A stretch of 64,000 nt of DNA, taken from the NCBI GenBank assembly GCA_964552205.1, contig CAZKFT010000001.1, positions 50,705 to 114,704 on the forward strand, written 5' to 3'. Shown here in pieces: positions 8,152-64,000 of this stretch. Made by a program: the position numbers and the translations under genes. The notes beneath the pieces were generated by a model that saw only the letters and a list, made by a program, of their open reading frames with translations, did not search any database and was not told where the DNA came from. Position 1 is the first letter of the stretch, and each line of letters begins with the position of its first letter. The stretch comes from an uncultured Gammaproteobacteria bacterium. Its GTDB lineage: Bacteria; Pseudomonadota; Gammaproteobacteria; Natronospirales; JAIVGZ01.

Positions 8152-8511
8152 GAGCCAGCCGATAAGCCGGGTTCTGTCGGGGACAGTCATTCATCTGGGA
8201 CGCACGTCACCGTGCGCCTCTAGCGACCTACCCGGAAGCCGTGCGGGCCACACGTTGCAGCGCGACGGATCGCGCGCATGCTTCCCTATTTGGTCTTGCT
8301 CCGAGTGGGGTTTTCCGTGCCGCGAACCGTTACCGGACGCGCGGTGCGCTCTTACCGCACCTTTTCACCCTTACCGGCGCCGAAGCGCTTAGGCGGTATG
8401 TTTTCTGTGGCACTTTCCGTCGGCTCGCGCCGCCCAGGCGTTACCTGGCACCCTGCCCTGCGGAGCCCGGACTTTCCTCTGCGTTGCCGCAGCGACTGTC
8501 TGGCTGACTCC
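8151..8511 (-). ncRNA. rnpB: RNase P RNA (bacterial type A)
   Basis: The reverse complement reads GGAGTCAGCCAGACAGTCGC...GAGGAAAGTCCGGGCTCC...GGGTGCCAGGTAACGCCTGG...ACAGAACCCGGCTTATCGGCTGGCTCC. These are the universally conserved RNase P RNA blocks, and the 5' and 3' ends pair to form P1. Confidence 0.85.
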
Positions 8512-49971: not shown

Positions 49972-51423
49972 GGGTTCGCAGGCCTGACTTGGCTGGCCAA
50001 GGCAATCGATGACGGTCTTACGCAACCTGTCTGGAAGCGTATCAATGGTGGAAATGACACCATGTTCCAACCATGGCGCTTTCAGGGTGAAAAGGAGATC
50101 GAGATGTCGTTGGACATCGAGGGATGACATTTCATCAGGCTCCGGTACATGATGCATGCTGTCGAGCCGGAGGCCGTGGTCTCCCTGGATGAGGATGATG
50201 GCATCGGGATTCGATGCACTCACGATATCAACGACTCGCATGATGCGTGCGTGAGTGCAAAGGACTTGCTCAGCATAGGTTTCTTCTATAAGGGCTGCTG
50301 AGAGGTGTGGGGGAATCTGCCCACTCAGCAGGTCCAGAACGACCCACCTGTCCCTGCTGGCCAACCCACATTCCGAATCTAGTACATACGGAAAATGGGG
50401 GAGCATCAGGTGTATCAGATATGCCTTTCCATCCCTGCGCGTTCCGAAATGGGAATCAAGGTCATCCAAGAGCCCTAGCATGGTGACCGGTCGCGGAAAG
50501 ACTACTTTCCCCCTCATGTCGCCTAACCCCAGACCATGCAAAAGGGCGATACCACGCACGGACTTTGTGCTCAGGTAATCCGCCCTCAATACATCGACCA
50601 CGATTCGCAACCTTCCACCATTCAACGTTCCGAATCTGGCCATCTGGCGACCGCTGATGTTGCGGTTGTAGGTGTGGCAGGAGGCGACTTCCGGATCACA
50701 CAATTCTAGGAAATTGCTCTGGACGATCGTGACATCATAGCCAAACTCGCGGAGAATGCCGGGATAACCTGCATTTACGATAGAGTAACTGAATTGGCCC
50801 CTATGCCGATCGACATCCCCCCCGAACGTGGCACTCAGGGACCTGACAGTCGAACCGGAGGTCGCACGTGTCGACTCGAAGATTGTGAATCCTCGATCCG
50901 TATAGTCCTGCAACAATCTGCTTGACGCGAGGGCAGGATGAATCTCAGCCATTGCGGCATGAGAGGCATTCTCGTCAATGATGATGTGCAGGAATAAGGG
51001 TGTTGAGGTGTTTTCGATCGGGTAGGTCGGAAGCGGAGTGTCCAGTATTTCTTGGTTGTACGATACAACCGCAGCCAGCAGGAAGACCACCGCGAAGGTA
51101 CCGACACCTCGTCGTACTCCCTCACCCCAAGCGGAGCGGAGTAAGAAGTAAAGAATCGGCAGGACCGCAATGGCAATGACATCGATTGATATGAAGTACG
51201 CGTCTACCAACCAATAGCCCAAGAAGGCCAGTATGAATGAACTAAACGCCCTTGAGCGTGCGGCGAGGGCGGACAATGCAATACCCATTAAAACTGCCAC
51301 AGAACCGACGACCAGTGTCTCGAAGCTGGCCAGCGAGTAACCGACATCCAATAAGTGCGGCAATAGAATTGCCAGCAACATCGCAGAAAAATACAACGTC
51401 CAAGTTCTCACGCTCAGTTGCAC
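49963..51423 (-). CDS. membrane protein with alkaline-phosphatase-superfamily (sulfatase / LTA-synthase-like) domain
   Basis: It has 4-5 N-terminal TM helices. The soluble domain has LFLHIIIDE near its start and ILIQGDHG near its end, resembling the metal-ligand motifs of sulfatase-fold enzymes. GC is lower than in flanking DNA. The family call is tentative. Confidence 0.55.
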
Positions 51424-52823
51424 CTGAAGCTGAAAAGGACGCGGCCCCCAGCCGATAGCTCGCGCTCATCGGTGATATCCGCGAATTCACCCAAGTAAGC
51501 ACGGAAGGTCTCCAAGCCATAGTCTACGAAGATATCCTCACGTGACTGGAGCATCTGCCTAACCATAATGTCGCTCTTCGGGACAAATTCGATAATCCCA
51601 CTGCGTGCAAGGCTTGTAATCCACTGGACGGCTTCTCGCAATGGAATGTTCTGTCCGATGGTCATATGGTGGATGAGCGCGAGAGCAAATATCGCATCGG
51701 GGCGTCCACGCTGGGATAAATCCTTGCGCTCGCTCAACCGCCAACCCAGGCTGGGGCTTGGATCGACACAGTTCATGACCAGAGGCAGCATGCCGGGATA
51801 CCTCTGCCTGGTCTGTTGGTATGCATATTCAAGCGCGTCAAGGTCGCTATCCAGGACTGCTGCGAATGATGCGCCAGCATCCAGAGCGGCAATGGAAAAA
51901 TCGCCCGAGTTTCCACCCAGGTCCCAAACGGACGTCACGCCTTCGAGCTGTACGAAGTTCGCGACGAACTGCCGCTTCGAGTTCCTAGTGTCATCGGAGT
52001 AACTGTTCACCGATGCGTACTGTTGCCAATAGGTCCCTTGCTTTCGAGCAGACTCCAAGCTTGCTATCAACCGATGCATCTCCGTGAGCAATACTCTATA
52101 TCGGCCTCTTGCCAGTTCCGGCGTACCGCTAACCGTGACAGAATCCGATGAGGTCACCCGCTGCGACTTGGCTTGCAGGGTGATATGCATGATGCCACTC
52201 AAGGTGAGCCACCTGCGCCAAGCCGGTAATAGCGCTGTGGCAGTCGCCAAGTCGATACCGTCAATGGAACCCCTCAGGAATGGCTGGAACGGGATGCCGC
52301 TCCAAGCCTCGAGCAAGAGTGGCACTAGGAACAGTCTGGTGAACTGGTTGTACCCCGCCCACGGTTCTCCCTCCCGGTACGGCCGGAGCGAGAGAATGTC
52401 GACGTGGATTGGTCTACCGTTATTGAACTGCATGTTATAAGGAGTCGCATCCGACAGCACGAAGCCTCGGTCCAGTGCCACCGTCTGGAGCTCTAGATGC
52501 TTGAGCGCTGCGTCCTTGAGCTGAGTGAACGTCCACTCGTAGGGGTATGTCACCAACTGAAGGCGGGGATGTTCGAGGACAACTGCCGGTGTCTCCCCAC
52601 GTGGCCCGCACAGGAGTCTGCGCAGGTCGTTGTCGATATCCACCCGCGTCGTCGGGATAAGCAATCCGCGGCCAATCAGTTCATCGAGCAGCCCGCAGTT
52701 CTCTAACGCAATGAAGCTTTCGCTCGCGGTCGAGTTGACCGTCCTAAGGACTCGTTGATCAAGATGGAAAACGTAGCCGGATGGGTCTCGGAAGGAGCCT
52801 GGGTCGCGGGACACGGTCGTCAA
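51414..52823 (-). CDS. class I SAM-dependent methyltransferase with N-terminal accessory domain
   Basis: The C-terminal half has motif I (VWDLGGNSGDFS) and a post-I acidic residue (VLDSD). The ~250-aa N-terminal domain starts GSFRDPSGYVF. It overlaps the downstream gene by 10 nt. Confidence 0.65.
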   Translation of the reverse strand: MTTVSRDPGSFRDPSGYVFHLDQRVLRTVNSTASESFIALENCGLLDELIGRGLLIPTTRVDIDNDLRRLLCGPRGETPAVVLEHPRLQLVTYPYEWTFTQLKDAALKHLELQTVALDRGFVLSDATPYNMQFNNGRPIHVDILSLRPYREGEPWAGYNQFTRLFLVPLLLEAWSGIPFQPFLRGSIDGIDLATATALLPAWRRWLTLSGIMHITLQAKSQRVTSSDSVTVSGTPELARGRYRVLLTEMHRLIASLESARKQGTYWQQYASVNSYSDDTRNSKRQFVANFVQLEGVTSVWDLGGNSGDFSIAALDAGASFAAVLDSDLDALEYAYQQTRQRYPGMLPLVMNCVDPSPSLGWRLSERKDLSQRGRPDAIFALALIHHMTIGQNIPLREAVQWITSLARSGIIEFVPKSDIMVRQMLQSREDIFVDYGLETFRAYLGEFADITDERELSAGGRVLFSFRCN

Positions 52824-52849: not shown

Positions 52850-53086
52850 TCAGTCTTCGTCCTGAGGCGGGATGGGTTTGCGCGTAAACAGCGCGATAAT
52901 GCGTTCCCTGATACTGCGAACACCTGCCATGACTGCTGCTACGCCGGCAATCAGGCCCTGGATTATCAGGCTGCCCGTGACGGGATCGATGTAGGCATGC
53001 GCCTCCAATGGGATTGCCGTCAGGAGGAATATCACGACAACAGTGTTCAGAGTTCGCATGGCATTCAACCGCGTATCCGTTATCAT
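52850..53086 (-). CDS. small secreted/membrane protein (signal peptide + YIDPVTGS motif + TM helix)
   Basis: If the start is at 53059, it has a signal peptide MRTLNTVVVIFLLTAIPLEAHA. The mature part is YIDPVTGSLIIQGLIAGVAAVMAGV followed by a basic tail. It lies 26 nt upstream of the methyltransferase. The start is unresolved (53086 or 53059). Confidence 0.45.
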   Translation of the reverse strand: MITDTRLNAMRTLNTVVVIFLLTAIPLEAHAYIDPVTGSLIIQGLIAGVAAVMAGVRSIRERIIALFTRKPIPPQDED

Positions 53087-53138
53087 GGGGCCAGAATATC
53101 ACCTTCCCATGGATTTCGCAGGTATGGAGTCGACGACC

Positions 53139-54263
53139 ATGAAGGCACTAGTTTATGGTGTGATAGTAGTCGGTGTGACCGTTGCAGGGCCGGTTGTGGC
53201 CGAAACCTATCAGTCCACCCACCACTCCTTCCGGACAGCCACCCTACTTGAAGGGCTTGAGCATCCGTGGAGTATCGCTTTTCTTCCGGATGGTGGTTGG
53301 CTAATCACCGAACGACCCGGGCGGTTGCGGTTTGTCCGTGATGGGCAACTGCTTGACCACCCAGTATCAGGGGTGCCCCCGGTTCATGCGGAGGGTCAAG
53401 GTGGTTTGCTTGATGTGGTCCTCCACCCCAGATTTTCCGACAACGGATTGGTTTACCTGAGTTACTCCAAGCGGTGTACGGAGTCAGGAAACACCACGGC
53501 AGTGGGCCGGGGCGTATGGCGTGATGGCGCATTGCACGGGTTCGAGGAACTCTATGAAGCGGATGCCTGTGCTCCGCGGGGACGCCATCATGGATCGCGC
53601 ATCGTATTCGACAATGACGGTTACATGTTCGTCACGGTCGGTGACCGGGGCGTTCAGGACCGCGCCCAGGAGCTTTCGGACAATATCGGTGTTGTACTTC
53701 GCCTGAACGATGACGGCAGTATTCCGAAGGATAATCCATTTGTCGGGAACCCCGAGGTCCATGATGCCAACTGGTCCGTCGGACACCGGAATGCACAGGG
53801 CATTGCGGTACACCCGGAGACTGGGGATATCTGGTCACACGAACATGGCCCTCGCGGCGGAGATGAGTTGAATCTGGTGCGTCGAGGACGGAACTATGGA
53901 TGGCCGGTTGCGACATTCGGAATCGAGTACAACGGCCGCACCATAAGTGAAATCACACACCAGCAGGCAGGAATGGAGCCGCCGGTAAAGCAGTGGACCC
54001 CTTCCATTGCTCCAAGTGGGCTCGCCATTTACGTGGGCGATGCATTTCCGACTTGGCGGAATGATTTTTTCGTTGGTGCACTTGCCCACCAGCAGGTTGT
54101 ACGTATCCGCTTTGATGGTCACGTCGAAATCGAAGAGGAGAAGTTGCTGGACCGCACGCATGGGAGGATCCGCGATGTGCGGGTTGGGCCCGACGGATTG
54201 ATTTATGTCCTGACGGATGATCGCAACGGCCGCTTGATTCGCTTGGAACCAATTGACAGATAG
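53139..54263 (+). CDS. PQQ-dependent soluble sugar (glucose/sorbosone) dehydrogenase, YliI-like
   Basis: It has a signal peptide and beta-propeller motifs (LEHPWSIAFLPDG, GHRNAQGIAVHP, EHGPRGGDELN, RDVRVGPDG). GGAG lies 9 nt upstream of the ATG at 53139. Confidence 0.8.
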   Translation: MKALVYGVIVVGVTVAGPVVAETYQSTHHSFRTATLLEGLEHPWSIAFLPDGGWLITERPGRLRFVRDGQLLDHPVSGVPPVHAEGQGGLLDVVLHPRFSDNGLVYLSYSKRCTESGNTTAVGRGVWRDGALHGFEELYEADACAPRGRHHGSRIVFDNDGYMFVTVGDRGVQDRAQELSDNIGVVLRLNDDGSIPKDNPFVGNPEVHDANWSVGHRNAQGIAVHPETGDIWSHEHGPRGGDELNLVRRGRNYGWPVATFGIEYNGRTISEITHQQAGMEPPVKQWTPSIAPSGLAIYVGDAFPTWRNDFFVGALAHQQVVRIRFDGHVEIEEEKLLDRTHGRIRDVRVGPDGLIYVLTDDRNGRLIRLEPIDR

Positions 54264-55563
54264 AATCGTGGGCGCGAGTGATGCAGGCCAGGAGAAGCTG
54301 GTACGCCAGTTGGGGGTCTGGGGCATCTGGCTGTTGGCGGTCAACAGCATGGTTGGCGCTGGCATTTTCGGCGTACCGGCGGGTGCTGCGGCACTGCTTG
54401 GGCCGTGGAGCCCTTTGGTATTCGTGGGCTGCGGTTTGTTGCTCGGCGCGGTCATCTTGTGCTTCGCGGAGTTGGCAAGTTATTTCCGCAGTACCGGTGG
54501 TCCCATTCTGTACATGCAGTCCGCGTTCGGGCCCTTGGCTGGGTTCCAGACCGGTTGGGCGTTCTACGTTGCGCGCGTGACCGCGTTCGCGGCCAACCTG
54601 AACCTGTTGGTCGCCTCTATCGCGTTTTTCTGGGAAGGCGCTACCGGCGGTGTGGAGCGCGTGCTGCTCATGGCTGTCATTGTCGGCGCGTTGGCTTGGG
54701 TCAATGTGATCGGTGTCCGCGAGGCCATGCGGTCAATCGGTGTACTGACGGTTCTGAAGTTCTTGCCTCTCATCTTGCTGGTAGTGTTCGGGATTACACG
54801 TATCGACGGTGAGGCGCTGCCACTCGCAAGCACGCCATTCCCTGCCGCAATGGATATCGGCACTGCAGCCTTGTTGGTGATCTATGCGTTTGTAGGCTGG
54901 GAGGCAGCAGTGGTGCCTGCCGGGGAAACCCGCAACCCGTCGCGTGATGTTCCACGGGCGTTGTTCTGGGCGCTCGGGCTGGTCACACTCCTATATGTGG
55001 CGGTGCAGACCGTTGCAGTTGCCGTGTTGCCGGACCTTGCCACCTCCGAGCGTGCATTGGTCGAGGTAGGGGCAGTGTTGTTTGGGCCTGTGGGCGCCAT
55101 ACTTCTGACCGCCGGTATCGTCGTTTCTGTCGGCGGGAACATCGCGGGGACGATGTTCACTGCACCGCGCATCACCTACTCGATGGCGCGAGAGGGCGGC
55201 TTGCCGCGCTGGTTCTCGGAGGTTCACCCTCATCACCGGACGCCGCGCAACTCAGTGGTATTTCTGGCCGTGCTGGTCTTTGTGCTTGCTGTCTATGGTT
55301 CCTTCATCTGGCTTGCTGCCATGAGCGCACTGGTACGGGTACTCATCTACATGGGCTGCATCGCGGCCATGCCGAGATTGAGGAAGCGCCATGGGTTCCA
55401 GACGGACGCCTTCCGAACTCCCGGTGGCTGGTCCATACCAGTGGGGGCATTCCTGGTCTGCGGCCTCTTGCTGACCCAAGTGAGCGCCCAGTCTGTGATG
55501 GTGACTTCCGTGTTTCTGCTCGCAGGTGCGGTGCTCTATTGGCTGGTACGTCAACGGGCATGA
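54253..55563 (+). CDS. APC superfamily amino acid permease
   Basis: It has about 12 TM helices and the N-terminal NSMVGAGIFGVP motif typical of APC transporters. The start is uncertain (TTG 54253 or GTG 54268). Confidence 0.8.
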   Translation: MTDRIVGASDAGQEKLVRQLGVWGIWLLAVNSMVGAGIFGVPAGAAALLGPWSPLVFVGCGLLLGAVILCFAELASYFRSTGGPILYMQSAFGPLAGFQTGWAFYVARVTAFAANLNLLVASIAFFWEGATGGVERVLLMAVIVGALAWVNVIGVREAMRSIGVLTVLKFLPLILLVVFGITRIDGEALPLASTPFPAAMDIGTAALLVIYAFVGWEAAVVPAGETRNPSRDVPRALFWALGLVTLLYVAVQTVAVAVLPDLATSERALVEVGAVLFGPVGAILLTAGIVVSVGGNIAGTMFTAPRITYSMAREGGLPRWFSEVHPHHRTPRNSVVFLAVLVFVLAVYGSFIWLAAMSALVRVLIYMGCIAAMPRLRKRHGFQTDAFRTPGGWSIPVGAFLVCGLLLTQVSAQSVMVTSVFLLAGAVLYWLVRQRA

Positions 55564-56711
55564 CCAGATGGGCGCTGCCCCTCGCAGTTGCGTTGGCACT
55601 GTGCGGGTGTGAATCACGACCTGCGGCTGACACCCCGGAGATATCAATGGAGTTGGGAGAAGTTTCGGGCTCTCATATGACTCTGGCTTACCTGTCTTCC
55701 ACCCCCATTGAGACTTTGCGATTTCACGAGACAGGCGGGTATTTCAGGGAGCGCAGATGGGAGGTTCTGACTGCAGGGTATGTCATTGCGCGTGACGGGG
55801 CTGCCCAGCTTGTGCAAGTAGACGACGGTGCGGAAGCTCAGCTAGCGGTGGAGGTGAGAGTCAACCTGGAAGCCGATTCACACCCGCGCAGGTATGACCA
55901 TGCTGTACGTTTCACCAACGGCTGGACTGCGATCTATTCGGGGTATCTTGATGCCGTGGGTATGGTGGCCAGCAAACCAACCTACATCGTGCTCGGACTC
56001 GCAGATTGGAATGAGGGCGGCGGCATCCGTTACCTGGTCGATCCGGCGCTACCGGAGTGGATGAGCTATTCCACCATGCGGCACCTCCCTAGCATTCTTG
56101 AAGTGTACCGCGAGCGCTTCGAGCTCGAGCTGGGGGTTCCGGTGCAGGTGTTGATAAGTTTTCATCCGCACTCCGATGTTACGGAACTAAGGGGTGCGGC
56201 ACTCCCTGGGCAGATCCACGTCGGGGTGCATGGAACGGAGTGGCAAGAAGATTCCCCTTGGGCTGAGCGGCGCTTGCATCAATTGATTGCCCATGAAGCA
56301 GCGCACCTGTGGAACGCAGGGCTTGTGCGCTATGCCGAAGGTACCTCGCCATCATTGTACGAAGGCGGTGCCGAGGCGCTGGGTATACGTGCCTTGTTCA
56401 CCCTTGGGCTGGTTGACGATGCGATGATGTTGGCGAGCGCAGACGAGGTCGCTGAGCGTTGCCTCGCTGGGACCGTACGCCGCGACTATGCCTGCGGACA
56501 CGACCATGCAAACCAGATTGAAAGGCAATCACTGGCCCAGGGTGGACCGGATCTCTTCAGCTTGTGGGGTCAGCTATTGCGCGACGCGCAGTCCGGTGAC
56601 GGACATTACGACGAGCACGCCTGGGAGGCCGTAGTGGCCTCCGCAGGCGCGGGCATCAGTCCTTGTCGTGGTGATACAGGTGCACATCGCGCTGTGGGAA
56701 CGGGATGCTGA
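55560..56711 (+). CDS. putative lipoprotein with gluzincin zinc-peptidase motif (HEXXH-X18-E)
   Basis: It has a lipobox (LALCGC) after the ATG at 55560, which overlaps the permease stop as ATGA. HEAAH (56292-56306) is followed 18 residues later by E (LYEGG), the M1-type spacing. I recognise no other family signature. Confidence 0.55.
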   Translation: MTRWALPLAVALALCGCESRPAADTPEISMELGEVSGSHMTLAYLSSTPIETLRFHETGGYFRERRWEVLTAGYVIARDGAAQLVQVDDGAEAQLAVEVRVNLEADSHPRRYDHAVRFTNGWTAIYSGYLDAVGMVASKPTYIVLGLADWNEGGGIRYLVDPALPEWMSYSTMRHLPSILEVYRERFELELGVPVQVLISFHPHSDVTELRGAALPGQIHVGVHGTEWQEDSPWAERRLHQLIAHEAAHLWNAGLVRYAEGTSPSLYEGGAEALGIRALFTLGLVDDAMMLASADEVAERCLAGTVRRDYACGHDHANQIERQSLAQGGPDLFSLWGQLLRDAQSGDGHYDEHAWEAVVASAGAGISPCRGDTGAHRAVGTGC

Positions 56712-57477
56712 TGCCTTCCTTGTCAAAACGCTTCTTGATGGCCTCCGTCAAGTCCCAATAGACCGCCCAGTAATCCTCGGTATTCACCCAGGGGCGAACA
56801 ATCCAGTCAATGCTTGAGTCACCGTGGGCATGCATCTTGATGGTTGGTGCCGGGTCTTTGAGCACGCGCTCATCCGCGTCAAGAATGCTGGCCAATGTTA
56901 CTCGCACCTTGTCGGCATCATCGTCGTAGCTGACACTCGCAGTCAGGTCCACACGGCGAGTCGGGTGGGACGAATAATTGACAATCGTGCCGCCCATCAT
57001 CTGACCATTGGGTACGACGATGCGCTTGTTGTCCGGCGACTTGAGTATGGTGGTGAAAATCTGTACTTCTTCGACCACACCCGCGACGCCTCCTCCCTCC
57101 ACGAAGTCCCCAATCCGGTAGGGCCGGAAGATGATGAGGAGCACGCCCGCCGCAAAATTGGCCAGCGAACCCTGTAATGCCAGCCCTACGGCGAGGCCAG
57201 CGGCACCGATGATCGCAATCAGTGAAGTCGTCTGCACGCCCAGCTGCCCGACGGCTGCCAGAACCACAAACACCAGCAGGATGGTGTGGACGATATTCGC
57301 TGCGAACTTAACCAGCACTGGTTCTACGCTTGCTCGTTCCATTGCCTTGATGACGAGGCCTTTCAGCGCTTTGGTAATCCATCGTCCAATCAAGAAGATT
57401 GCAATCGCGGCGACAATGTTCATTCCGAAATGCGCGCCAGATTCCGAGATTGACGCCAATAATGCATCTGTATCCAT
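56656..57477 (-). CDS. mscS: small-conductance mechanosensitive channel MscS
   Basis: It is co-linear with E. coli MscS (GAAGLAVGLALQGSLANFAAGVLLIIFRP, VQIFTTILKSPDNKRIVVPNG, ISIPFPQRDVHL). GGGAG lies 5 nt upstream of the ATG at 57477. Confidence 0.85.
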   Translation of the reverse strand: MDTDALLASISESGAHFGMNIVAAIAIFLIGRWITKALKGLVIKAMERASVEPVLVKFAANIVHTILLVFVVLAAVGQLGVQTTSLIAIIGAAGLAVGLALQGSLANFAAGVLLIIFRPYRIGDFVEGGGVAGVVEEVQIFTTILKSPDNKRIVVPNGQMMGGTIVNYSSHPTRRVDLTASVSYDDDADKVRVTLASILDADERVLKDPAPTIKMHAHGDSSIDWIVRPWVNTEDYWAVYWDLTEAIKKRFDKEGISIPFPQRDVHLYHHDKD

Positions 57478-57497
57478 GGGGCTCCCATCCTTCATGG

Positions 57498-58511
57498 TTA
57501 TTTGCCTAACATGTACATTTGCCACAGTTCCTTGTGGCTGATGCGAAGCAATGGCTCGATGGCAAGTCTGCCGACGGTGCCGATGCTAGCTTCCAGATAT
57601 TTCAATTCCTGGAACATCGACTTGACGAGATTATCCGGCTCCGGATTGAATCCCGCTTCGCGCATCATCAGCAAGCCTTTTGCTCGCAAGGAAAGCTCCG
57701 TGTAGAGGCGAAGATAGCACAACAAGTCAGCCACAATTGGTCCGTGAAATCTGTCTCGTAGTTCGTGCAGGTAACGCCCGACAGGTGAATCGGACAGCTG
57801 CCCGGAGTTGATTAATGCAAGCAACTCCGCGTCGGTATCGAAGCCGGTGCCTAGCCAAAGTCGCATCTCCTTCTCGCTCTCCTGGAAAATCATGTACATC
57901 AGTGGCGGCAGGATGACCAGGATTCCCAGGGTTGAGAAGATGGGTGAGAAGAAGAAGTGATTGAAAATCGAATGCAACACCACCGCAACAATCATGCCCG
58001 GTGTAAAGGCGGCCACCCCTGCTGAGCCACCCTTGTCGACCACCGCCAACCCCATCATGGCGAAAATTCCGGTAGCGCCACCGTGCATGATTGCGGTGCC
58101 GAAACCACGCACAATCCAGACACCAACATGCTCATCGGGAAACATACGCAGGTAATACACGTTCTCGATTACGGCGAAGCCCGCGCCAACCGCAAAGCCG
58201 AATATGGCCGCATCGATCAGGAACCCTATGCGCCGAGCCCGGATAAGGGCGACGATGACAGCCCCCTTCAGGATCTCCTCGACCAAGGGCGCGATGTACC
58301 GCGACAGCATGGTCCGATCCACATCGAACAGTGCTACCAGTTGTTGGTTAACGAGGTAGCTGAGCCCAGCCACGCAGGTCCCCGCGAGGATGACAAAAAT
58401 GACTGACTTGAGGCTGACGAGCTTGAAACTGTCCAGCGCTAACAGAGCAGCAAGAAACCCCAGAACCGGCAAAATGCCAATTGCCAGGCCGATGAGAAAA
58501 TCAGCGCTCAC
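57498..58511 (-). CDS. prsW: PrsW family intramembrane metalloprotease
   Basis: It is polytopic with the PrsW motifs (PLVEEILKG, FGFAVGAGFAVIEN, TAIMHGGATG) plus a ~120-aa cytoplasmic tail. The GTG start directly abuts the stop of the upstream gene (TGA-GTG). Confidence 0.75.
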   Translation of the reverse strand: MSADFLIGLAIGILPVLGFLAALLALDSFKLVSLKSVIFVILAGTCVAGLSYLVNQQLVALFDVDRTMLSRYIAPLVEEILKGAVIVALIRARRIGFLIDAAIFGFAVGAGFAVIENVYYLRMFPDEHVGVWIVRGFGTAIMHGGATGIFAMMGLAVVDKGGSAGVAAFTPGMIVAVVLHSIFNHFFFSPIFSTLGILVILPPLMYMIFQESEKEMRLWLGTGFDTDAELLALINSGQLSDSPVGRYLHELRDRFHGPIVADLLCYLRLYTELSLRAKGLLMMREAGFNPEPDNLVKSMFQELKYLEASIGTVGRLAIEPLLRISHKELWQMYMLGK

Positions 58512-61460
58512 TCAGAGTATCTTCAGCGAAAGCATCCACTCGCTACCGGCGCGGTCCCGCCCCTGGAAGCCGACGGCATATCCTGCCGACAAGGTCATGT
58601 CGAACCAGTGCAAAACCGTGAACCGCAAGTCAATCTGCGTGCCGACAGTCGCATAGTTGCGCCGCCGCAAGGTGCTGTCGGGCTCTGTCGACAGCAAGGA
58701 GACAAACAGGGCAGGGCGCAGCCATGTCAGGTATGCGCCCGGAGAACCGACATTCTCGAAGACCTTCGGGGGCAGGTTCAGTTCGACAGTGTGCCTTGCG
58801 AAATTGCGGCCACCCAGTTCGTTGATTTCGAATCCCGGGAACGAGAAATGCTCGCGGTAGCGTTTGATCGACCCACTGTCCACATAGTTGTTCCCGAAGC
58901 CGCCGAAATAGTGATTGGCAAACGGGTTGGTGCGGTTGCCGAAGCCGAAGCCGAGTGCGCTCCGGAACCAGATGGAGGAGTGGTCCATGGGCAGGGGAAT
59001 GCCGAAGTCATAAGCACCACGCACGGTGGCCACGGTTTCCCCGCCAGCATTGCTGAAGTTCGCGACTGCGTTCCAGGTCACACCCTTTTCATCGTCCACT
59101 GCCCCGAGGGAACGTAGGGTATGGGAGAAATGAAGCCCCGTCTGAAGCGAGATGAGACGGTCGAAAGCCGTGCCGATATTCTGGAAGTCCGGGAGCGTAT
59201 CCAGATTGGTGTAAATCGCGAAGTCAGTACGCCAGTCCAGTGTGCGCGGGCTGTCGAAGACGATGGAATGGTCATAGCCGAGCGTGGCCGCCATGCCTTT
59301 GCGGCTACGTTGAGTTGGACCAAAAATGTCGTAGAAGTCCGACCTGTTCCAGGACAATCCAGCGCGCCATGAAAGGTATTGGTACCGTAGCGCGATGTGT
59401 CCGCGCTCATTCGAGGGCAGGCCACCATCCGGCGTGTACGCAACCGTGATGCCCAGGTTGGCCAGATTGAGGGGGTCTGCGATGTTGGCGTGAACACCGA
59501 GGCCGATGGTTTCCTTGTAACCCTGTAGCACCGGATACAGGCTTTGAAGACCAAGTTCACGAAGCGGCACATAAGGACCAGACCCAGTAATCAGCTCATC
59601 CGGGTTGACGGTACTTGGTGGCGCTACCTGCCAGGTTGTCACCACCGGGTGTTTGCGAGCGAGCTCAGCGCCGAGGAAGGTTATCGCACTGACCGACTCC
59701 AGAGGCTGGGGGTCAATCAGTACAGGCGTGAAGCCCGCCCCCGTGTAGCTGTAGGCCACCAGTTGGCCATCAGCCCGCGGTATAGGTCGGACGAAGCCCG
59801 TTTCGGCATTGGTCACCGCCGCCATTTCTCCGGTCTCGATGTCGAAGCGGAAAATGTTCGATACGCCGGTGTAGTAACTGCTCCCGTACACATACTTTCC
59901 ATCCGGGGAGAACACAAAGCCTTCAGGTACGGCTTGACCGAAGTCGAACTGGCGGTGGGCCTGCACGTTGCCCGCGAGTAACTGGTCCACTTCCCACAGG
60001 CGCAGGAACTGGTCCCCGTTCACTTCGCTGATGGACGCTGACAACATCTTTCCATCGGGCGAGATATCCAAATCATAGGGCACAACCCCGTAAGGGAAGG
60101 TGTGCACTTGGTTCCAGCTGTCGTATGGGAACGGAATTCGTACAAGAGTTGCGAGACCATTCAGGTGGCGCACCCCAATTAGTGACCGATCGGCGGGGTT
60201 GAAGGCCATCTCGCCGATGCGCGCATCCTTAAGCAGTATCCGCTCGTTGCCACTGTTGACATCAAGCGCCACGATGTCGCGCATCGAGTAGTTGTCTGTG
60301 GTGTAGAAGAGGGTGCCCGATTCGCGGTCGAATGCCGTGGAGGTGACACGGTAGAGCATCGCTCCTTTCAGGTCTGCGAGCTGGCGGATGGAACCATCCT
60401 CAAGGCTCAATGCACCAATGTGGCCAATGACGCCAGGATAACGGAACGCTCCATAAAGCAGTCCTTTCTCTTCATCGAGGAAGGACCGCGACACTGAGCC
60501 GAGTGCACGGCTGGTCAGGGCGCGATACGGCGTGATTGGGTGTTCCTGTACCCGCTCAAGGTTGCGTGTCTGGAAGTCACGCTCGAAGCGAATCCAGTCC
60601 TGCCAGCCTTCCTCCAGAGGCATTCCGAATACGCGTTCGAAGTCTGCTGAGTAGTATCGGGCGCTACCTTCATCGCGGCGAAGCCAATCCACGAGTTTCT
60701 CCGGGGAGTGCTCATAGGCCAGCCAAGTCATGAATCGGGTGCCGTAGAGATAGGCGTTGACCCCGACCTGAAAGTCGATACGCGTGCCACGAGAGACAAG
60801 CCCAAGTGGGTCGAAGAACTGCGCGTCATCGCGCACCATCGCCCGGAAGACCATCTCGTCGTAGCCGCCCTGGGCGCGACCCAGACCGCCACCCATGTAG
60901 GTTTCGAAAAAGGTTGCGCTGCCTTCGAGGTACCAGCGCGGCACGATGAAACGAGGAACCGTCAGGTAGGAGTAAAGGAGGGTTTCCGGATTGCGTCCAT
61001 CGGGCATGACCTTACCACGGAAAATCCTGCGCCAGCGTGCATCCTGCTCGGTCCACATGTCCATGGTCGCCACATGCACGAGCTCGTGGTTCATCAGCGT
61101 GTACATGCGCTCAGCGGCCGGGTAGGTCTCGAAGGTGTGTGAGAGCGGGGCGATATCGAAGCGCAGGGTGTTCACGGGCTGCGCACTCGCGGAAGCATTG
61201 CCGTAATCGCTGAAGTCCTTGAGCATGACCGTGGTCCGCTCCCAGGGCTCCCAACCGAACACCCGCCGCTGCCAACGCAGGGAATTGATGAAGGTCGGGA
61301 TGGCGTACGGGACCAGGTAGTTCAGCGTGGGGTCGAAATAAACGATGCGGACATCGTCAGTTTCCGTGGAGGTCAAGAAAAGCGGGCTGCTGTCCTCGTC
61401 CCCGGAAGCGGTCGTCGAAAGCATCAACAAACCGACCATCGCAAGTGCACGACTCAACAT
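58512..61460 (-). CDS. large secreted multi-domain protein: HEXXH peptidase-like N-domain, TolB/PD40-like beta-propeller region, C-terminal Omp85-like beta-barrel
   Basis: It has a signal peptide (MLSRALAMVGLLMLSTTASG) after the ATG at 61460, with GGAGG upstream. HELVH is at 61074-61088. The middle region has repeated ...SPDGK... propeller-blade signatures. The C-terminal ~350 aa has alternating aromatic/Gly-rich strands (FGGFGNNYVD, LSAGYAVGF). Domain calls are by eye. Confidence 0.7.
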   Translation of the reverse strand: MLSRALAMVGLLMLSTTASGDEDSSPLFLTSTETDDVRIVYFDPTLNYLVPYAIPTFINSLRWQRRVFGWEPWERTTVMLKDFSDYGNASASAQPVNTLRFDIAPLSHTFETYPAAERMYTLMNHELVHVATMDMWTEQDARWRRIFRGKVMPDGRNPETLLYSYLTVPRFIVPRWYLEGSATFFETYMGGGLGRAQGGYDEMVFRAMVRDDAQFFDPLGLVSRGTRIDFQVGVNAYLYGTRFMTWLAYEHSPEKLVDWLRRDEGSARYYSADFERVFGMPLEEGWQDWIRFERDFQTRNLERVQEHPITPYRALTSRALGSVSRSFLDEEKGLLYGAFRYPGVIGHIGALSLEDGSIRQLADLKGAMLYRVTSTAFDRESGTLFYTTDNYSMRDIVALDVNSGNERILLKDARIGEMAFNPADRSLIGVRHLNGLATLVRIPFPYDSWNQVHTFPYGVVPYDLDISPDGKMLSASISEVNGDQFLRLWEVDQLLAGNVQAHRQFDFGQAVPEGFVFSPDGKYVYGSSYYTGVSNIFRFDIETGEMAAVTNAETGFVRPIPRADGQLVAYSYTGAGFTPVLIDPQPLESVSAITFLGAELARKHPVVTTWQVAPPSTVNPDELITGSGPYVPLRELGLQSLYPVLQGYKETIGLGVHANIADPLNLANLGITVAYTPDGGLPSNERGHIALRYQYLSWRAGLSWNRSDFYDIFGPTQRSRKGMAATLGYDHSIVFDSPRTLDWRTDFAIYTNLDTLPDFQNIGTAFDRLISLQTGLHFSHTLRSLGAVDDEKGVTWNAVANFSNAGGETVATVRGAYDFGIPLPMDHSSIWFRSALGFGFGNRTNPFANHYFGGFGNNYVDSGSIKRYREHFSFPGFEINELGGRNFARHTVELNLPPKVFENVGSPGAYLTWLRPALFVSLLSTEPDSTLRRRNYATVGTQIDLRFTVLHWFDMTLSAGYAVGFQGRDRAGSEWMLSLKIL

Positions 61461-61516
61461 GTCACCCCTCCCCAGTGGCATCCGACCCTGCCACGCATGG
61501 TCGCACATTCCTGGGG

Positions 61517-61557
61517 TCAAAAAGAAACCGCCGGCCCCTGGGAGGCGACCGGCGGTT
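61517..61557 (-). terminator. Rho-independent terminator after the repeat-protein gene
   Basis: A 9-bp stem AACCGCCGG/CCGGCGGTT (61526-61534 / 61549-61557) is followed on the minus strand by TCTTTTTGA. It lies 26 nt after the stop at 61583 and about 60 nt before the next ATG. Confidence 0.6.
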
Positions 61558-61582
61558 GCTTGGACTGCTTAGACGGGCTGGA

Positions 61583-63463
61583 TCAGCGCGTCTCGAAAGC
61601 CCTCATCAAGGCCTGGGCGAACTGCGGATGCTGCGCCATGGCCGCGAACGCCTGCGCATTCTGCGACAGAGCGGCGAAGGCCTGTGGGTACTGGGCAAGC
61701 ACCATGAACGCTTGTGGCTGCTGTGACAGCGCCGCGAAGGCCTGCGGATGCTGTGACATCGCTGCAAATGCCTGCGGATGCTGTGACAGCGCTGCGAAGG
61801 CCTGCGGATGCTGTGACAGCGCTGCGAAGGCCTGTGCACTCTGCGACAGCGCAGCGAAGGCCTGCGGGTGCTGCGACATGGCTGCAAACGCCTGCGGATG
61901 CTGGGACAGTGCCGCGAACGCCTGCGGATCCAGTGCCATGGCGGCAAAGGCCTGCGGGTGCTGTGCCATGGCCGCGAAGGCCTGCGGGTGTTGGGCCAGT
62001 GCTGCAAAGGCCTGTGGCTGCTGCGCCAGCGCCGCGAAGGCCTGTGGCTGCATGGCGAATGCCGCAAAGGCCTGCGGGTGCTGCGCCAAGGCCGCGAAGG
62101 CCTGCGGGTGCTGGGCCAGCGCTGCAAAGGCCTGTGGCTGCTGCGCCAGCGCCGCGAATGCCTGAGGCTGCTGCGCCATGGCCGCAAACGCCTGCGGTTG
62201 CAGTGCGAAGGCTGCGAAAGCCTGTGGGTGCTGCGCCAGGGCCGCGAAGGCCTGCGGATGTTGCGACAGTGCTGCAAAGGCCTGTGGCTGCTGCGCCAGA
62301 GCCGCGAACGCCTGCGGCTGCTGTGCCAGGGCCGCGAAGGCCTGCGGGTGCTGCGCCAGCGCCGCGAAGGCTTGCGGGTGCTGCGCCATGACCGCGACTG
62401 CCTGTACCTGTTGCGACAACGCAGCAAAGGCCTGTGCATCCTGGGCCAGTGCGGCGAATGCCTGCGGGTACTGACCTGCAGCGGCGAAGGCCTGCGGATC
62501 TTGGGCCAGTGCTGCAAACGCCTGTGGCTGCTGTGCCATCGCGGCGAAGGCCTGCGGGTACTGCGCCATCGCCTGGAAGGCCTGTGGATATTGCGCTAAA
62601 GCAGCAAACGCCTGCGGATGCTGCGACAGGGCGGCAAAGGCCTGCGGCTGCTGTGCCAAGGCCGAGAAAGCCTGCGGGTGCTGTGCCAGCGCCGCGAAGG
62701 CCTGCGGATGTTGCGCCATGGCCGCGAAGGCCTGCGGGAACTGCGCAAGGACCTCAAAAGCCTGCGGGTGCTGCGACATGGCGGCGAACGCCTGCGGGTG
62801 CTGCGCCATGGCAGCAAACGCCTGCGGGTACTGCGACATAGCCGCAAAAGCCTGTGGCTGCTGTGCCAGTGCAGAGAACGCCTGGGCATCCATCGACATG
62901 GCAGCAAACGCCTGTGGCTGCTGTGCCAAGACCTCGAAGGCCTGCGGGAATTGTGCAAGGACCTCGAACGCCTGCGGGGATTGCGCCATGGCGGCGAATG
63001 CTTGCGGATGCTGTGACATCGCTGCAAATGCCTGCGGCTGCTGCGCCAGAACTTCAAAGGCCTGCGGGAACTGTGCAAGAACCTCGAAGGCCTGCGGGAA
63101 CTGCGCCATGGCGGCGAAGGCCTGCGGGAACTGCGCCATCGCAGCGAGTGCCTGCGGGTGCTGCGCCAATGCCTGGAATCCAGGGTCTTGGGCCATCGCA
63201 CGGAATTCAGGATCGCTGACCATCCGCTCGAACAGGTCGGTCTGCATCAGCTGGGTGATGCCTTGGTCGCCAAGCGCAACATCATCAGCGCTCATTTGGG
63301 GTGCACGGTAACGCTCCGCCGGAGCGATGGTCCCCGCGACGGTCTCTTCCGCCGGCGGATAGTTGGAGCCAAAATAGGCCACTGCACCGAGAGCCACGAT
63401 GGCGCCGCCAGCGATGACCCACATCTTCGGCGTGCTAAACACGCCCCCCTTTACGTCACTCAT
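61583..63463 (-). CDS. single-pass membrane protein consisting mostly of ~53 tandem PQAF decapeptide repeats (no family recognised)
   Basis: The ATG at 63463 has AGGGGGA about 8 nt upstream. The N-terminal part has a TM helix (MWVIAGGAIVALGAVAYFG). Repeats run from residue ~84 to the C-terminus. Unit-to-unit DNA differences fall mainly on third codon positions of this frame (CCG/CCA, TTC/TTT, GCG/GCA/GCC/GCT). A terminator follows. Confidence 0.8.
   Translation of the reverse strand: MSDVKGGVFSTPKMWVIAGGAIVALGAVAYFGSNYPPAEETVAGTIAPAERYRAPQMSADDVALGDQGITQLMQTDLFERMVSDPEFRAMAQDPGFQALAQHPQALAAMAQFPQAFAAMAQFPQAFEVLAQFPQAFEVLAQQPQAFAAMSQHPQAFAAMAQSPQAFEVLAQFPQAFEVLAQQPQAFAAMSMDAQAFSALAQQPQAFAAMSQYPQAFAAMAQHPQAFAAMSQHPQAFEVLAQFPQAFAAMAQHPQAFAALAQHPQAFSALAQQPQAFAALSQHPQAFAALAQYPQAFQAMAQYPQAFAAMAQQPQAFAALAQDPQAFAAAGQYPQAFAALAQDAQAFAALSQQVQAVAVMAQHPQAFAALAQHPQAFAALAQQPQAFAALAQQPQAFAALSQHPQAFAALAQHPQAFAAFALQPQAFAAMAQQPQAFAALAQQPQAFAALAQHPQAFAALAQHPQAFAAFAMQPQAFAALAQQPQAFAALAQHPQAFAAMAQHPQAFAAMALDPQAFAALSQHPQAFAAMSQHPQAFAALSQSAQAFAALSQHPQAFAALSQHPQAFAAMSQHPQAFAALSQQPQAFMVLAQYPQAFAALSQNAQAFAAMAQHPQFAQALMRAFETR
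61605..63215 (-). repeat. tandem 30-bp repeat array (about 53 units, in-frame, coding)
   Basis: The plus-strand consensus is gccgcgaaggcctgcgggtgctgcgccagc, repeated head-to-tail without spacers. The first and last units are degenerate (DPEFRAM, DPGFQAL, HPQFAQAL). Confidence 0.9.
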
Positions 63464-63568: not shown

Positions 63569-64000
63569 TCAATCAATTGTCGGTACTGGCAAAAAATCCT
63601 CAAAAATCAATTCATTATCCCTGTACAGGCGGTAAGGGACGCGCTCGGCGGCGCCGCTCAAGAGCACCGCAAAGCGTCGTCCACCGCCAAGCTGCATGTC
63701 GAGTTGGTCACCGTTGAGCTCCAGCGTTGGAGCATCTTCTCCTGCGCCCAAAACGCCGACCACCTTCAAACTATCCGACAGCGGGACCACCAACCTGAAG
63801 GGATTTTCGGTTTCCAGATTGATCGCCATTACCAGGAAAGACTCGGTGCGCTGCAACTGCAGTGAGCCGCTTACGCCAGAACTGCCGAAATTCGACTGCC
63901 GCGTGGTGGGGCCGTGCGTTCCTTCAATGCCGGCGGCCATGGTGCCCGCCATACGGTGCCACTCACCAGGCGCATCGGATGGAGGACCCAGTATCACCCC
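63569..64000 (-). CDS. hypothetical protein, C-terminal part only (ORF runs off the window end)
   Basis: The ORF is open to position 64000, has the same orientation as the repeat gene and has high GC3. I recognise no motif. Confidence 0.4.
   Translation of the reverse strand, partial: GVILGPPSDAPGEWHRMAGTMAAGIEGTHGPTTRQSNFGSSGVSGSLQLQRTESFLVMAINLETENPFRLVVPLSDSLKVVGVLGAGEDAPTLELNGDQLDMQLGGGRRFAVLLSGAAERVPYRLYRDNELIFEDFLPVPTID

What the first reader, a model, noticed from the sequence alone, without database searches (positions are those of the whole stretch)
61583..63463. A 626-aa membrane-anchored protein made of ~53 tandem 'A-L-A-Q-H-P-Q-A-F-A' decapeptides
Seen directly: after an 83-residue N-terminal part with one hydrophobic helix, the rest of the protein is a head-to-tail 10-residue repeat. 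Its PQAF core is nearly invariant. The few deviants are PQAL, AQAF, VQAV, PGFQ and PEFR. Variation is position-restricted: the residue before Pro is H/Q/Y/F/S/D/N, the residues after Phe are AA/EV/SA/QA/MV, then come L/M/F and A/S. Many differences between units are synonymous. For example, unit 62091-62120 compared with 62121-62150 has CCG>CCA, TTC>TTT and GCG>GCA. This argues for selection on the peptide rather than recent DNA amplification or assembly stutter. The composition is Ala/Gln/Pro/Phe rich with almost no charged residues, except in the 'EV' variants. One Pro every 10 residues does not match any repeat class I can name (not pentapeptide, TPR, Sel1, collagen or HubP/FimV-type). The slightly basic N-terminus weakly suggests an N-in topology, which would put ~530 repeat residues in the periplasm. 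That is much longer than the envelope is wide if the region is extended or helical. I consider this the best candidate for something undescribed in the window.
Basis: partly seen in the sequence, partly recalled or inferred. Interest (0 to 1): 0.85.

Follow-up and report, generated by a model that had tools for sequence, protein, structure and literature searches.

The report
Periplasmic decapeptide-repeat arm of envelope-stress module
The 626-residue protein is real and under strong selection: it is the most regular member of a widespread but unnamed bacterial family, whose roughly 54 ten-residue units are predicted to fold into a long rod of short helices in the periplasm, and which is always encoded with an outer-membrane protease-like protein and a PrsW membrane protease and often wired to a stress sigma factor.

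Summary
ORF 61583..63463 (-) encodes 626 aa. After a 19-residue hydrophobic helix and a conserved 50-residue segment come 54 in-register decapeptides with no indel (TRF period 30, 51.6 copies).

It is not an artefact. 49 of 51 units differ at DNA level. An independently assembled ortholog (L086) has the same length, with 186 synonymous and 24 non-synonymous codon differences.

It is not an orphan. A profile of its membrane-proximal core finds 611 clusters and 375 species genomes of Pseudomonadota, all labelled "hypothetical".

In every locus long enough, the gene is followed by two others. One is a ~1000-aa protein with a signal peptide, an invariant HExxH domain, a TolB-like propeller and a beta-barrel. 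The other is a PrsW-family intramembrane protease.

In beta/gamma lineages the repeat protein carries an N-terminal anti-sigma domain, or follows a separate anti-sigma gene, behind an ECF sigma and RsbU/W/V-like genes. The window has the split form and is cut inside the anti-sigma gene.

AlphaFold2 predicts one 8-residue helix per unit, giving an alpha-solenoid. Relatives, but not the window protein, weakly match STI1/DP-type Pfam models.

My best reading is inferred, not shown: a periplasm-spanning arm of a PrsW-dependent proteolytic envelope-signalling module.

The parts
61583..63463 (-). REP: complete coding sequence of the 626-aa decapeptide-repeat protein, stop codon included
   Evidence: ORF listed. 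The start ATG is preceded by AGGGGGA. The L086 ortholog has identical length, 96.2% aa and 88.1% nt identity, with 186 synonymous against 24 non-synonymous codon differences.
63368..63424 (-). Hydrophobic helix, aa 14-32 (MWVIAGGAIVALGAVAYFG): probable signal-anchor
   Evidence: AlphaFold2 helix 13-33. It is homologous to the transmembrane helix that follows the cytoplasmic anti-sigma domain in fused relatives. Cleavage after AVA by signal peptidase was not excluded.
63215..63367 (-). Conserved membrane-proximal core, aa 33-83 (YPP..GTIAPAERYRAPQ..DV.LGDQ..QLMQTD.FE)
   Evidence: Columns G44, R51, L64, G65, D66, M73 and Q74 are invariant across 59 family members. AlphaFold2 pLDDT is below 50 for residues 27-66, as expected for a conserved linear motif. 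I propose it as a docking or cleavage site; that is inference.
61595..63214 (-). 54 in-register decapeptide units, aa 84-623; the 51 canonical units lie at 61625..63154
   Evidence: AlphaFold2 predicts one 8-residue helix (P-Q-A-F-A-A-L/M-A) plus a 2-residue turn per unit, with pLDDT 75-86 over most of the array.
61586..61624 (-). C-terminal cap, aa 614-626 (QFAQALMRAFETR)
   Evidence: Related C-terminal motifs (NP.FA.AL..DP.F..AL) occur across the family, whatever the period of the middle repeats.
61519..61557 (-). Terminator-like hairpin with a U-run between REP and the next gene
   Evidence: Read from the sequence. Folding gives -29 kcal/mol, z = -2.9, followed by UUUCUUUUU. The consensus scan missed it because of its loop/inner-stem geometry.
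58512..61460 (-). BIG: ~982-aa secreted protein with an HExxH domain, a TolB-like beta-propeller and a C-terminal beta-barrel. The ORF extends to a TTG at 61520, but the ATG at 61460 with GGAGGGG upstream matches the ortholog's start.
   Evidence: AlphaFold2 gives pLDDT 81 and pTM 0.80. Foldseek's best matches are TolB. H145, E146 and H149 are invariant in 38 homologs. Several homologs have precomputed Omp85_2 hits.
57498..58511 (-). PrsW-family intramembrane protease, 337 aa, with a ~130-aa C-terminal extension; its start abuts the stop codon of BIG
   Evidence: Pfam PF13367, E = 4e-21. The EExxK (VEEILKG) and HxxxN (HSIFN) motifs can be read in the translation. It is present in every related locus that is long enough.
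63569..64000 (-). 3' part of a separate anti-sigma factor gene, cut by the window end
   Evidence: It aligns with the C-terminal periplasmic domains of the anti-sigma proteins of L006 and L008. It is 65% identical to the 243-aa protein between the ECF sigma gene and REP in L086.

Best explanation
What it is. REP is a single-pass inner-membrane protein, N-terminus in and C-terminus out. Its periplasmic part is a long alpha-solenoid rod built from about 54 ten-residue helix-turn units, capped by conserved N- and C-terminal motifs.

Where it sits. It is the first gene of a conserved three-gene cassette:
- REP;
- an outer-membrane beta-barrel protein carrying a periplasmic HExxH domain and a TolB-like propeller ('BIG');
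- a PrsW-type intramembrane protease.
In many lineages, including this one, the cassette is attached to an ECF sigma / anti-sigma pair with RsbU/W/V-like partner-switch genes.

Proposed mechanism (inferred). The rod reaches from the inner membrane towards BIG at the outer membrane. An envelope disturbance would change this contact, or the rod's occupancy by hydrophobic ligands. That would expose the conserved membrane-proximal motif to PrsW and/or BIG. Proteolysis of REP would then remove or alter the anti-sigma function. Where the anti-sigma domain is fused to REP this would be direct. In the split form seen in the window it would act through the neighbouring anti-sigma protein.

Shown here: the repeat, its selection, the family, the synteny, the domain fusions, and the predicted folds.
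Inferred: the topology of the unfused form, the rod's length, the contacts between the proteins, which protease cuts what, and the signal.
For: Real and selected gene.

Family size: 375 species genomes and 611 clusters at E<=1e-10.

Synteny: REP-BIG-PrsW is present in every locus long enough, among 85 loci. It was also found when starting from BIG homologs.

Link to sigma signalling:
- Fused anti-sigma-domain-TM-core-repeat proteins sit directly after an ECF sigma gene and GAF-SpoIIE / HATPase_c_2 / STAS genes.
- The split form (sigma, separate anti-sigma, REP) occurs in L006, L008, L086 and L089, and in the window.

Fold of REP: one short helix per unit, pLDDT 75-86. Foldseek finds only generic alpha-solenoids.

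Linear motif: the core is conserved but predicted disordered.

BIG: invariant HExxH; TolB-like propeller and barrel.

PrsW: Pfam PF13367. From established knowledge, PrsW is the site-1 protease for the anti-sigma factor RsiW in B. subtilis.

Stable array length: 626 aa in both the window and L086, and about 430-residue tails in many Sphingomicrobium genomes.
Against: - No experiment exists for any member of the family.
- In Alphaproteobacteria the cassette has no adjacent sigma or anti-sigma gene, so sigma control cannot be the core function.
- Tail length ranges from about 190 to 540 residues across the family, and the middle repeats have periods of 7, 9, 10 or 14 residues. This argues against a single fixed 'ruler' length.
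- The window protein lacks an anti-sigma domain.
- The unfused N-terminus has a possible A-x-A site, so it might be cleaved and released as a soluble periplasmic protein.
- The REP-BIG-PrsW genes could simply be the regulon (output) of the sigma factor.
- The AlphaFold2 model rests on a 14-sequence alignment of a repetitive protein, and I could not measure it.
Confidence: 0.45

Rival explanations
1. Periplasmic holdase or hydrophobic-ligand binder. The array would be a giant chain of STI1/DP-like units. Its Phe/Met/Leu-lined surface would bind unfolded outer-membrane proteins, lipoproteins, amphipathic peptides or lipids. BIG and PrsW would be the associated degradation machinery, and any signalling would be secondary.
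For: STI1-HOP_DP, XPC-binding and UBQLN1 Pfam hits occur in 18, 22 and 5 of 59 family members, some above the gathering score. The composition is rich in Phe, Met, Leu, Ala and Gln with almost no charge. The cassette exists without any sigma gene in Alphaproteobacteria.
Against: The window protein itself has no STI1-type hit. The Pfam scores are sums of short, low-complexity stretches. In a two-layer solenoid Phe and Leu/Met would be buried rather than exposed. In some lineages the middle repeats are replaced by unrelated 7- or 14-residue units, which fits a spacer better than a specific binding surface.
Confidence: 0.2
2. Structural tether or spacer only. REP would be a TolA- or Lpp-like strut linking the inner membrane to the outer-membrane protein BIG. 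It would help envelope integrity or set envelope spacing, without being a proteolytic substrate.
For: The architecture resembles TolA: TM anchor, long Ala-rich helical repeat, conserved C-cap. The partner has a TolB-like propeller. Array length is conserved within clades. The interior repeat sequence is interchangeable while the caps are conserved.
Against: This does not explain the invariable PrsW gene, the invariant HExxH of BIG, or the repeated fusion of REP to anti-sigma domains.
Confidence: 0.15
3. Low-complexity, largely disordered linker. The period would reflect replication slippage and homogenisation rather than a fold.
For: The composition is extreme (A+Q+P+F = 76%). Different lineages have independently homogenised different unit lengths.
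Against: There are no indels in 54 units and none between two genomes that are 12% divergent at DNA level, with strong purifying selection. Codon usage differs between units. AlphaFold2 gives helix-turn units at pLDDT 75-86. Divergent members such as P0335 have non-identical, solenoid-like repeats.
Confidence: 0.08
4. Assembly stutter, or an untranslated frame.
For: Many database relatives are fragments that end inside the array. Some long-read contigs are frameshifted there.
Against: The longest exact DNA repeat is 38 nt and 49 of 51 units are distinct. An independent metagenome assembly has an identical array length. 160 of 183 differences lie at codon position 3 of this frame.
Confidence: 0.01

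Closest known systems
RsiW / PrsW / sigma-W regulated intramembrane proteolysis (Bacillus subtilis)
   Same: An ECF sigma factor, a single-pass anti-sigma factor with an extracytoplasmic domain, and a PrsW-family membrane protease (Pfam PF13367). Fused relatives of REP have exactly the anti-sigma-domain / TM / extracytoplasmic-domain layout.
   Different: RsiW has a short, non-repetitive outer domain and no outer-membrane partner. Here the outer domain is a 190-540-residue repeat solenoid and the protease gene is physically linked. A ~1000-aa HExxH/TolB-like/barrel protein is always present. The window protein has lost, or never had, the anti-sigma domain. Cleavage has not been shown.
STI1/DP-type helical domains (Hop/Sti1 DP1-DP2, ubiquilin STI1, Rad23 XPC-binding; Pfam PF17830, PF23195, PF09280)
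   Same: Units of 10-11 residues that start with [N/D/S]-P, followed by a short amphipathic helix with Phe/Leu/Met. Recurrent Pfam hits occur in family members.
   Different: Those domains are eukaryotic, cytosolic and made of 4-6 helices. Here there are more than 50 units in a bacterial periplasm. The window protein itself gives no hit, and the similarity may be compositional.
TolA (with TolB) of the Tol-Pal system
   Same: An N-terminal TM anchor and a long alanine-rich helical domain of short tandem repeats in the periplasm. The partner has a TolB-type propeller at the outer membrane.
   Different: TolA domain II is a continuous charged helix (Lys/Glu/Ala) followed by a globular domain III, and works with TolQR. 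REP has Pro-punctuated 8-residue helices, almost no charge and no globular end domain. No sequence homology was detected.
[quoted passage not shown]
   Same: An anti-sigma factor whose periplasmic part connects to an outer-membrane beta-barrel.
   Different: FecR uses a globular C-terminal domain and a TonB-dependent transducer. Dma carries its own barrel. Neither has a repeat solenoid, a PrsW protease or an HExxH/propeller partner.
TamB-TamA (TAM)
   Same: An inner-membrane-anchored, periplasm-spanning repetitive protein paired with an Omp85-type barrel. There are weak Omp85_2 hits for BIG and its homologs.
   Different: TamB is a beta-sheet groove, not an alpha-solenoid. TamA has POTRA domains, not a protease-like domain and a propeller.

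Membership tests
STI1/DP-like domains (Pfam PF17830 STI1-HOP_DP, PF23195 UBQLN1, PF09280 XPC-binding) | Significant match of the protein to the family HMM | tested here: not met
   The window protein has no hit to these models at E<=1 or at E<=1e-3. Among 59 relatives, 18, 5 and 22 match at E<=1e-3. A few are above the gathering score: P0012 UBQLN1 32.3 bits against 27, and L060 XPC-binding 41 bits against 26.4.
STI1/DP-like domains | Compact 4-6-helix domain with a hydrophobic client-binding groove | not testable with these tools
   The AlphaFold2 secondary structure shows about 55 equal short helices. Coordinates and surfaces could not be inspected.
Class I (zinc-binding/ASD) anti-sigma factors | N-terminal cytoplasmic anti-sigma domain before the TM helix | tested here: not met
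   The window protein has only 13 residues before the helix. Fused homologs do carry such a domain, with weak zf-HC2 or RseA_N hits. In the window the domain lies on the separate upstream gene.
Class I anti-sigma factors | Gene directly downstream of an ECF sigma factor gene | tested here: inconclusive
   The window ends inside the upstream anti-sigma gene. In the L086 ortholog the order is sigma, anti-sigma, REP.
PrsW (site-1 protease) substrates | Cleavage of the extracytoplasmic part by PrsW | not testable with these tools
   The only evidence is strict gene linkage of REP and PrsW.
Named repeat classes (TPR, Sel1, HEAT, ARM, pentapeptide, collagen) | Match to the Pfam/NCBIfam repeat model and the class's unit length | tested here: not met
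   No such Pfam hits. There is only a sub-threshold NF047558 'TPR end-of-group' hit at aa 77-100 (22 bits against a cut-off of 32). The unit is 10 residues with one helix. Foldseek similarity to ARM/importin solenoids is generic (TM-score 0.2-0.36).
TolA | TolA domain III and TolQR partners; sequence match | tested here: not met
   No TolA hit in Pfam, NCBIfam or PDB. No tolQR genes lie next to the gene.
The unnamed REP family defined here | TM helix + 'YPP..GTIAPAERYR..LGDQ..QLMQTDAFE' core + Ala-rich short-period repeats + 'NP.FA.AL' C-cap, encoded upstream of BIG and PrsW | tested here: met
   The window protein is the most regular member, with lag-10 identity 0.73.

The most novel reading that the evidence does not exclude
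REP, BIG and PrsW form a previously undescribed trans-envelope proteolytic device of Pseudomonadota. In it, a periplasmic rod made of STI1-like ten-residue helices is anchored in the inner membrane and docks on an outer-membrane protease/propeller/barrel protein. The rod would report the state of the outer membrane, or the width of the periplasm, through its own cleavage. Different lineages would have plugged this device into ECF sigma factors by fusing or juxtaposing an anti-sigma domain.
Probability: 0.3. Interest if true: 0.8.

Novelty: new variant of a known kind. Interest (0 to 1): 0.6.

Why it matters
If the reading is right, it adds a widespread envelope-surveillance module to the short list of known ways in which Gram-negative bacteria signal across two membranes (RseA/DegS, FecR/FecA, Rcs, Tol-Pal). 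The module is present in hundreds of soil and water Pseudomonadota species.

It would also give PrsW-type proteases a first defined partner set in diderm bacteria.

It would be a bacterial, periplasmic use of an STI1-like helical unit.

The protein itself is a natural, near-perfect, charge-free 10-residue alpha-solenoid. That is of interest for repeat-protein folding and design.

The ~1000-aa HExxH/TolB-like/barrel partner has more than 6000 database clusters, all 'hypothetical'. It is an equally uncharacterised and very conserved family.

Tried and rejected
- Pfam, NCBIfam and PDB sequence searches of the window protein gave nothing usable. The Hyr1 hit at 27.7 bits is a sum of low-complexity stretches, and I disregard it.
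- Foldseek of the REP model found only generic solenoids.
- Exact-sequence cluster look-up of REP and six relatives found none of them in the collection.
- The ECF classification paper (PMC7826278) does not mention PrsW, SpoIIE or STAS contexts in its main text, and no supplements are held.
- Literature searches for a bacterial or periplasmic STI1-like repeat, for PrsW in diderms, and for a periplasm-spanning alpha-solenoid found no description of this family.
- An EcfG-type promoter (GGAAC-N15-18-[CG]GTT) upstream of REP was found in 0 of 67 loci that lack an adjacent sigma gene. I therefore dropped the general-stress-response regulon idea.
- PADLOC gave no hit for any cassette protein, so there is no support for an anti-phage defence system.
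- A profile of BIG against PDB sequences picked up only weak propeller hits and could not assign the HExxH domain to a peptidase family.
- The assembly-artefact and wrong-frame readings were rejected.
- Rfam over the whole window found only RNase P RNA.
Full report

ORF 61583..63463 on the minus strand encodes 626 residues. Its parts, in order:
- 13 N-terminal residues;
- a 19-residue hydrophobic stretch (MWVIAGGAIVALGAVAYFG);
- about 50 non-repetitive residues;
- from residue 84 to residue 623, units of ten with no insertion or deletion.

Tandem Repeats Finder gives period 30, 51.6 copies and 74% matches. In the 51 canonical units the positions are Q(51) A(51) F(49) A/E A/V L/M A/S Q(47) H/Q/Y/F/D P(46).

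2. IT IS A REAL, TRANSLATED, SELECTED GENE

At DNA level:
- 49 of 51 units are different;
- mean identity between units is 73%;
- the four Ala codons are mixed;
- the longest exact repeat is 38 nt;
- synonymous codon differences between units outnumber non-synonymous ones, 4340 to 3464.

A second, independently assembled metagenome contig (L086) carries the same operon. I found it through a 94%-identical neighbour protein. Its ortholog is also exactly 626 codons with no indel. Identity is 96.2% at protein level and 88.1% at DNA level, with 186 synonymous and 24 non-synonymous codon differences.

Within the array, 160 of 183 differences are at codon position 3 of this frame. The five other frames show the opposite pattern. 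Assembly stutter and wrong-frame explanations are therefore excluded. The long ORFs in other frames are by-products of the repeat.

3. IT BELONGS TO A LARGE, UNNAMED FAMILY

A first protein search found 17 relatives. They share a conserved segment just after the hydrophobic helix (YPP..GTIAPAERYRAPQ..DV.LGDQ.VAQLMQTDAFE.MVKDP.F.ALA), followed by Ala-rich short-period repeats.

A profile of this segment (A1) gave:
- relatives in 375 species-representative genomes;
- 611 clusters at 50% identity with E<=1e-10 among 1.84 billion representatives.

Among the best 80 loci, the hosts are Caulobacteraceae, Hyphomonadaceae/Terricaulis, Sphingomicrobium/Sphingomonas, Micropepsaceae, Lysobacterales/Rhodanobacteraceae, Usitatibacter and Burkholderiales, all from metagenome-assembled genomes. 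The closest units (AQHPQAFELM) are in a Wenzhouxiangellaceae genome.

Every source name is 'hypothetical protein'. Many database entries are fragments that stop inside the array.

Family members keep the N-cap and a C-cap (NP.FA.AL..DP.F..AL). The middle varies: 10-residue units in most, 9-residue units (NAQFQALAS) in Lysobacterales, and 7- or 14-residue units in a few. Tails run from about 190 to 540 residues. The window protein is the most regular (lag-10 identity 0.73) and among the longest.

4. THE GENE NEIGHBOURHOOD IS FIXED

In all 85 loci examined, wherever the contig reaches far enough, REP is followed by a ~1000-aa protein ('BIG') and a PrsW-family protease. The window has the same order:
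- BIG at 58512..61460;
- PrsW at 57498..58511, starting right after BIG's stop codon.

Starting from BIG homologs gives the same picture.

There are three architectures.

(a) Fused. An anti-sigma-like N-terminal domain, TM helix, core and repeats lie in one protein. The gene sits directly after an ECF sigma gene and GAF-SpoIIE (PP2C), HATPase_c_2 and STAS genes.

(b) Split. The sigma gene is followed by a separate 243-263-aa anti-sigma protein with its own periplasmic domain, and then by REP with a short N-terminus. This form is seen in L006, L008, L086 and L089.

(c) Stand-alone. Alphaproteobacteria have the cassette without a sigma module.

The window has form (b). The partial ORF 63569..64000 aligns with the C-terminal domain of those anti-sigma proteins and is 65% identical to the one in L086. 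The sigma, STAS and GAF-PP2C-kinase genes lie just beyond the window end.

5. PREDICTED FOLDS

REP. AlphaFold2 (14-sequence alignment, mean pLDDT 71.8, 75-86 over most of the array) gives one 8-residue helix (P-Q-A-F-A-A-L/M-A) and a two-residue turn (Q-H) per unit, about 55 helices in all. Residues 27-66, which hold the conserved motif, are of low confidence. Foldseek finds only generic alpha-solenoids such as beta-catenin and importins, with TM-scores of 0.2-0.36.

The array is therefore best described as an alpha-solenoid of unusually short helices. Assuming 2-3 helices per ~9.5 A of rise, it would be roughly 17-25 nm long, which is the order of a periplasm's width.

BIG. The model has pLDDT 81 and pTM 0.80. 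It shows a signal peptide, a helical HExxH domain (aa ~45-325), a beta-propeller (330-602) whose best structural matches are TolB (E = 3e-8), and a C-terminal beta-barrel (645-1001). H145, E146 and H149 are invariant in 38 homologs. Several homologs carry precomputed Omp85_2 hits.

PrsW. The EExxK and HxxxN motifs can be read in the translation.

6. RELATION TO KNOWN REPEAT CLASSES

The window protein matches no Pfam, NCBIfam or PDB family.

Across 59 family members, however, 22 hit XPC-binding, 18 hit STI1-HOP_DP and 5 hit UBQLN1 at E<=1e-3. A few are above the gathering score. These three models describe the same STI1-type helical unit: [N/D]-P followed by a short amphipathic helix.

The resemblance is a recurrent sequence signal but is built from short low-complexity stretches. 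I treat it as 'looks like', not as membership.

7. HOW IT MOST LIKELY WORKS

Shown here:
- the repeat and its selection;
- the family;
- the invariable REP-BIG-PrsW linkage;
- the repeated fusion or juxtaposition with anti-sigma domains;
- intact catalytic motifs in both protease-like partners.

From established knowledge: PrsW is the site-1 protease that starts regulated intramembrane proteolysis of the anti-sigma factor RsiW in B. subtilis.

Inferred model:
- REP is anchored in the inner membrane. The fused forms fix the N-in/C-out topology.
- Its solenoid extends across the periplasm and its conserved C-cap contacts BIG at the outer membrane.
- Envelope damage, or ligand binding, changes this contact.
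- The conserved membrane-proximal motif is then cut by PrsW and/or BIG.
- This inactivates the anti-sigma function and releases the ECF sigma factor.
- The RsbU/W/V-like genes would add a cytoplasmic input.

A terminator-like hairpin after REP (61519-61557; -29 kcal/mol, z = -2.9) suggests that REP is made in excess over BIG and PrsW.

Against a purely signalling role: Alphaproteobacteria have the cassette without a sigma gene, and tail length varies more than two-fold across the family.

The rivals are a holdase for hydrophobic clients, a passive TolA-like strut, and a disordered linker. They are scored separately in the Rival explanations section.

8. NOVELTY AND VERDICT

It is not unique, though. 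It is the extreme member of a widespread unnamed family inside a conserved, uncharacterised envelope module. That module combines known parts (ECF sigma/anti-sigma, PrsW, TolB-like propeller, Omp85-like barrel) in a new way.

I rate it a new variant of a known kind, with interest 0.6. The function is inferred from context only.

Noticed in passing
window 58512-61520 (-): The ~1000-aa neighbour (HExxH domain + TolB-like propeller + beta-barrel) belongs to a very conserved family: 60-94% identity and more than 6000 database clusters. Every member is labelled 'hypothetical', and only some have weak Omp85_2 or PD40 Pfam hits. It is as uncharacterised as the repeat protein.
   Followed up: partly
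window 57498-58511 (-): The PrsW-family protease is 337 aa, about 130 residues longer than the Pfam domain. It has a C-terminal helical extension of unknown role. Its start codon directly follows the stop codon of the upstream gene.
   Followed up: partly
window 63569-64000 (-): The window ends inside an anti-sigma factor gene. In the ortholog locus L086, the ECF sigma gene, a STAS gene and a GAF-SpoIIE-HATPase_c_2 fusion gene lie immediately upstream. The periplasmic domain of this anti-sigma protein has no Pfam match.
   Followed up: partly
window 61519-61557 (-): A strong hairpin followed by UUUCUUUUU lies between the repeat gene and the next gene. The simple terminator scan missed it.
   Followed up: partly
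window 56656-57525 (-): An MscS-type mechanosensitive channel gene overlaps the end of the PrsW gene by 28 nt and is also present in L086. It may belong to the same operon.
   Followed up: no
window 61445-63311, both strands: The repeat creates long spurious ORFs in five other frames, for example a Cys/Ala-rich 222-aa ORF at 61497-62165 (+) and Arg/Ser/Pro-rich ORFs. Gene callers on frameshifted long-read contigs translate these frames (P0006, P0007, P0014, P0017).
   Followed up: yes
L060 4579-6804 and 9965-11182: One Burkholderiales genome has two family members in the same cassette: a 741-aa fused anti-sigma form before BIG, and a 405-aa short-N-terminus form between BIG and PrsW.
   Followed up: no
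L018, L027, L034, L035, L040, L068, L077; L024, L046, L059: Relatives have replaced the 10-residue unit by 9-residue (NAQFQALAS), 7-residue (GSKAADL) or 14-residue (QKAFDANATDAAAR) units between the same conserved caps. The interior repeats have therefore been re-amplified independently in different lineages.
   Followed up: partly
window 8147-8511 (-): RNase P RNA, bacterial class A (326.7 bits). It is the only Rfam family found in the window.
   Followed up: no
window 49963-52823 (-) and 55539-56711 (+): Three large ORFs (486, 469 and 390 aa) have no Pfam match. They lie near a ClpB gene (47389-49971), a glucose/sorbosone dehydrogenase gene (53043-54263) and an amino-acid permease gene (54253-55563).
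   Followed up: no
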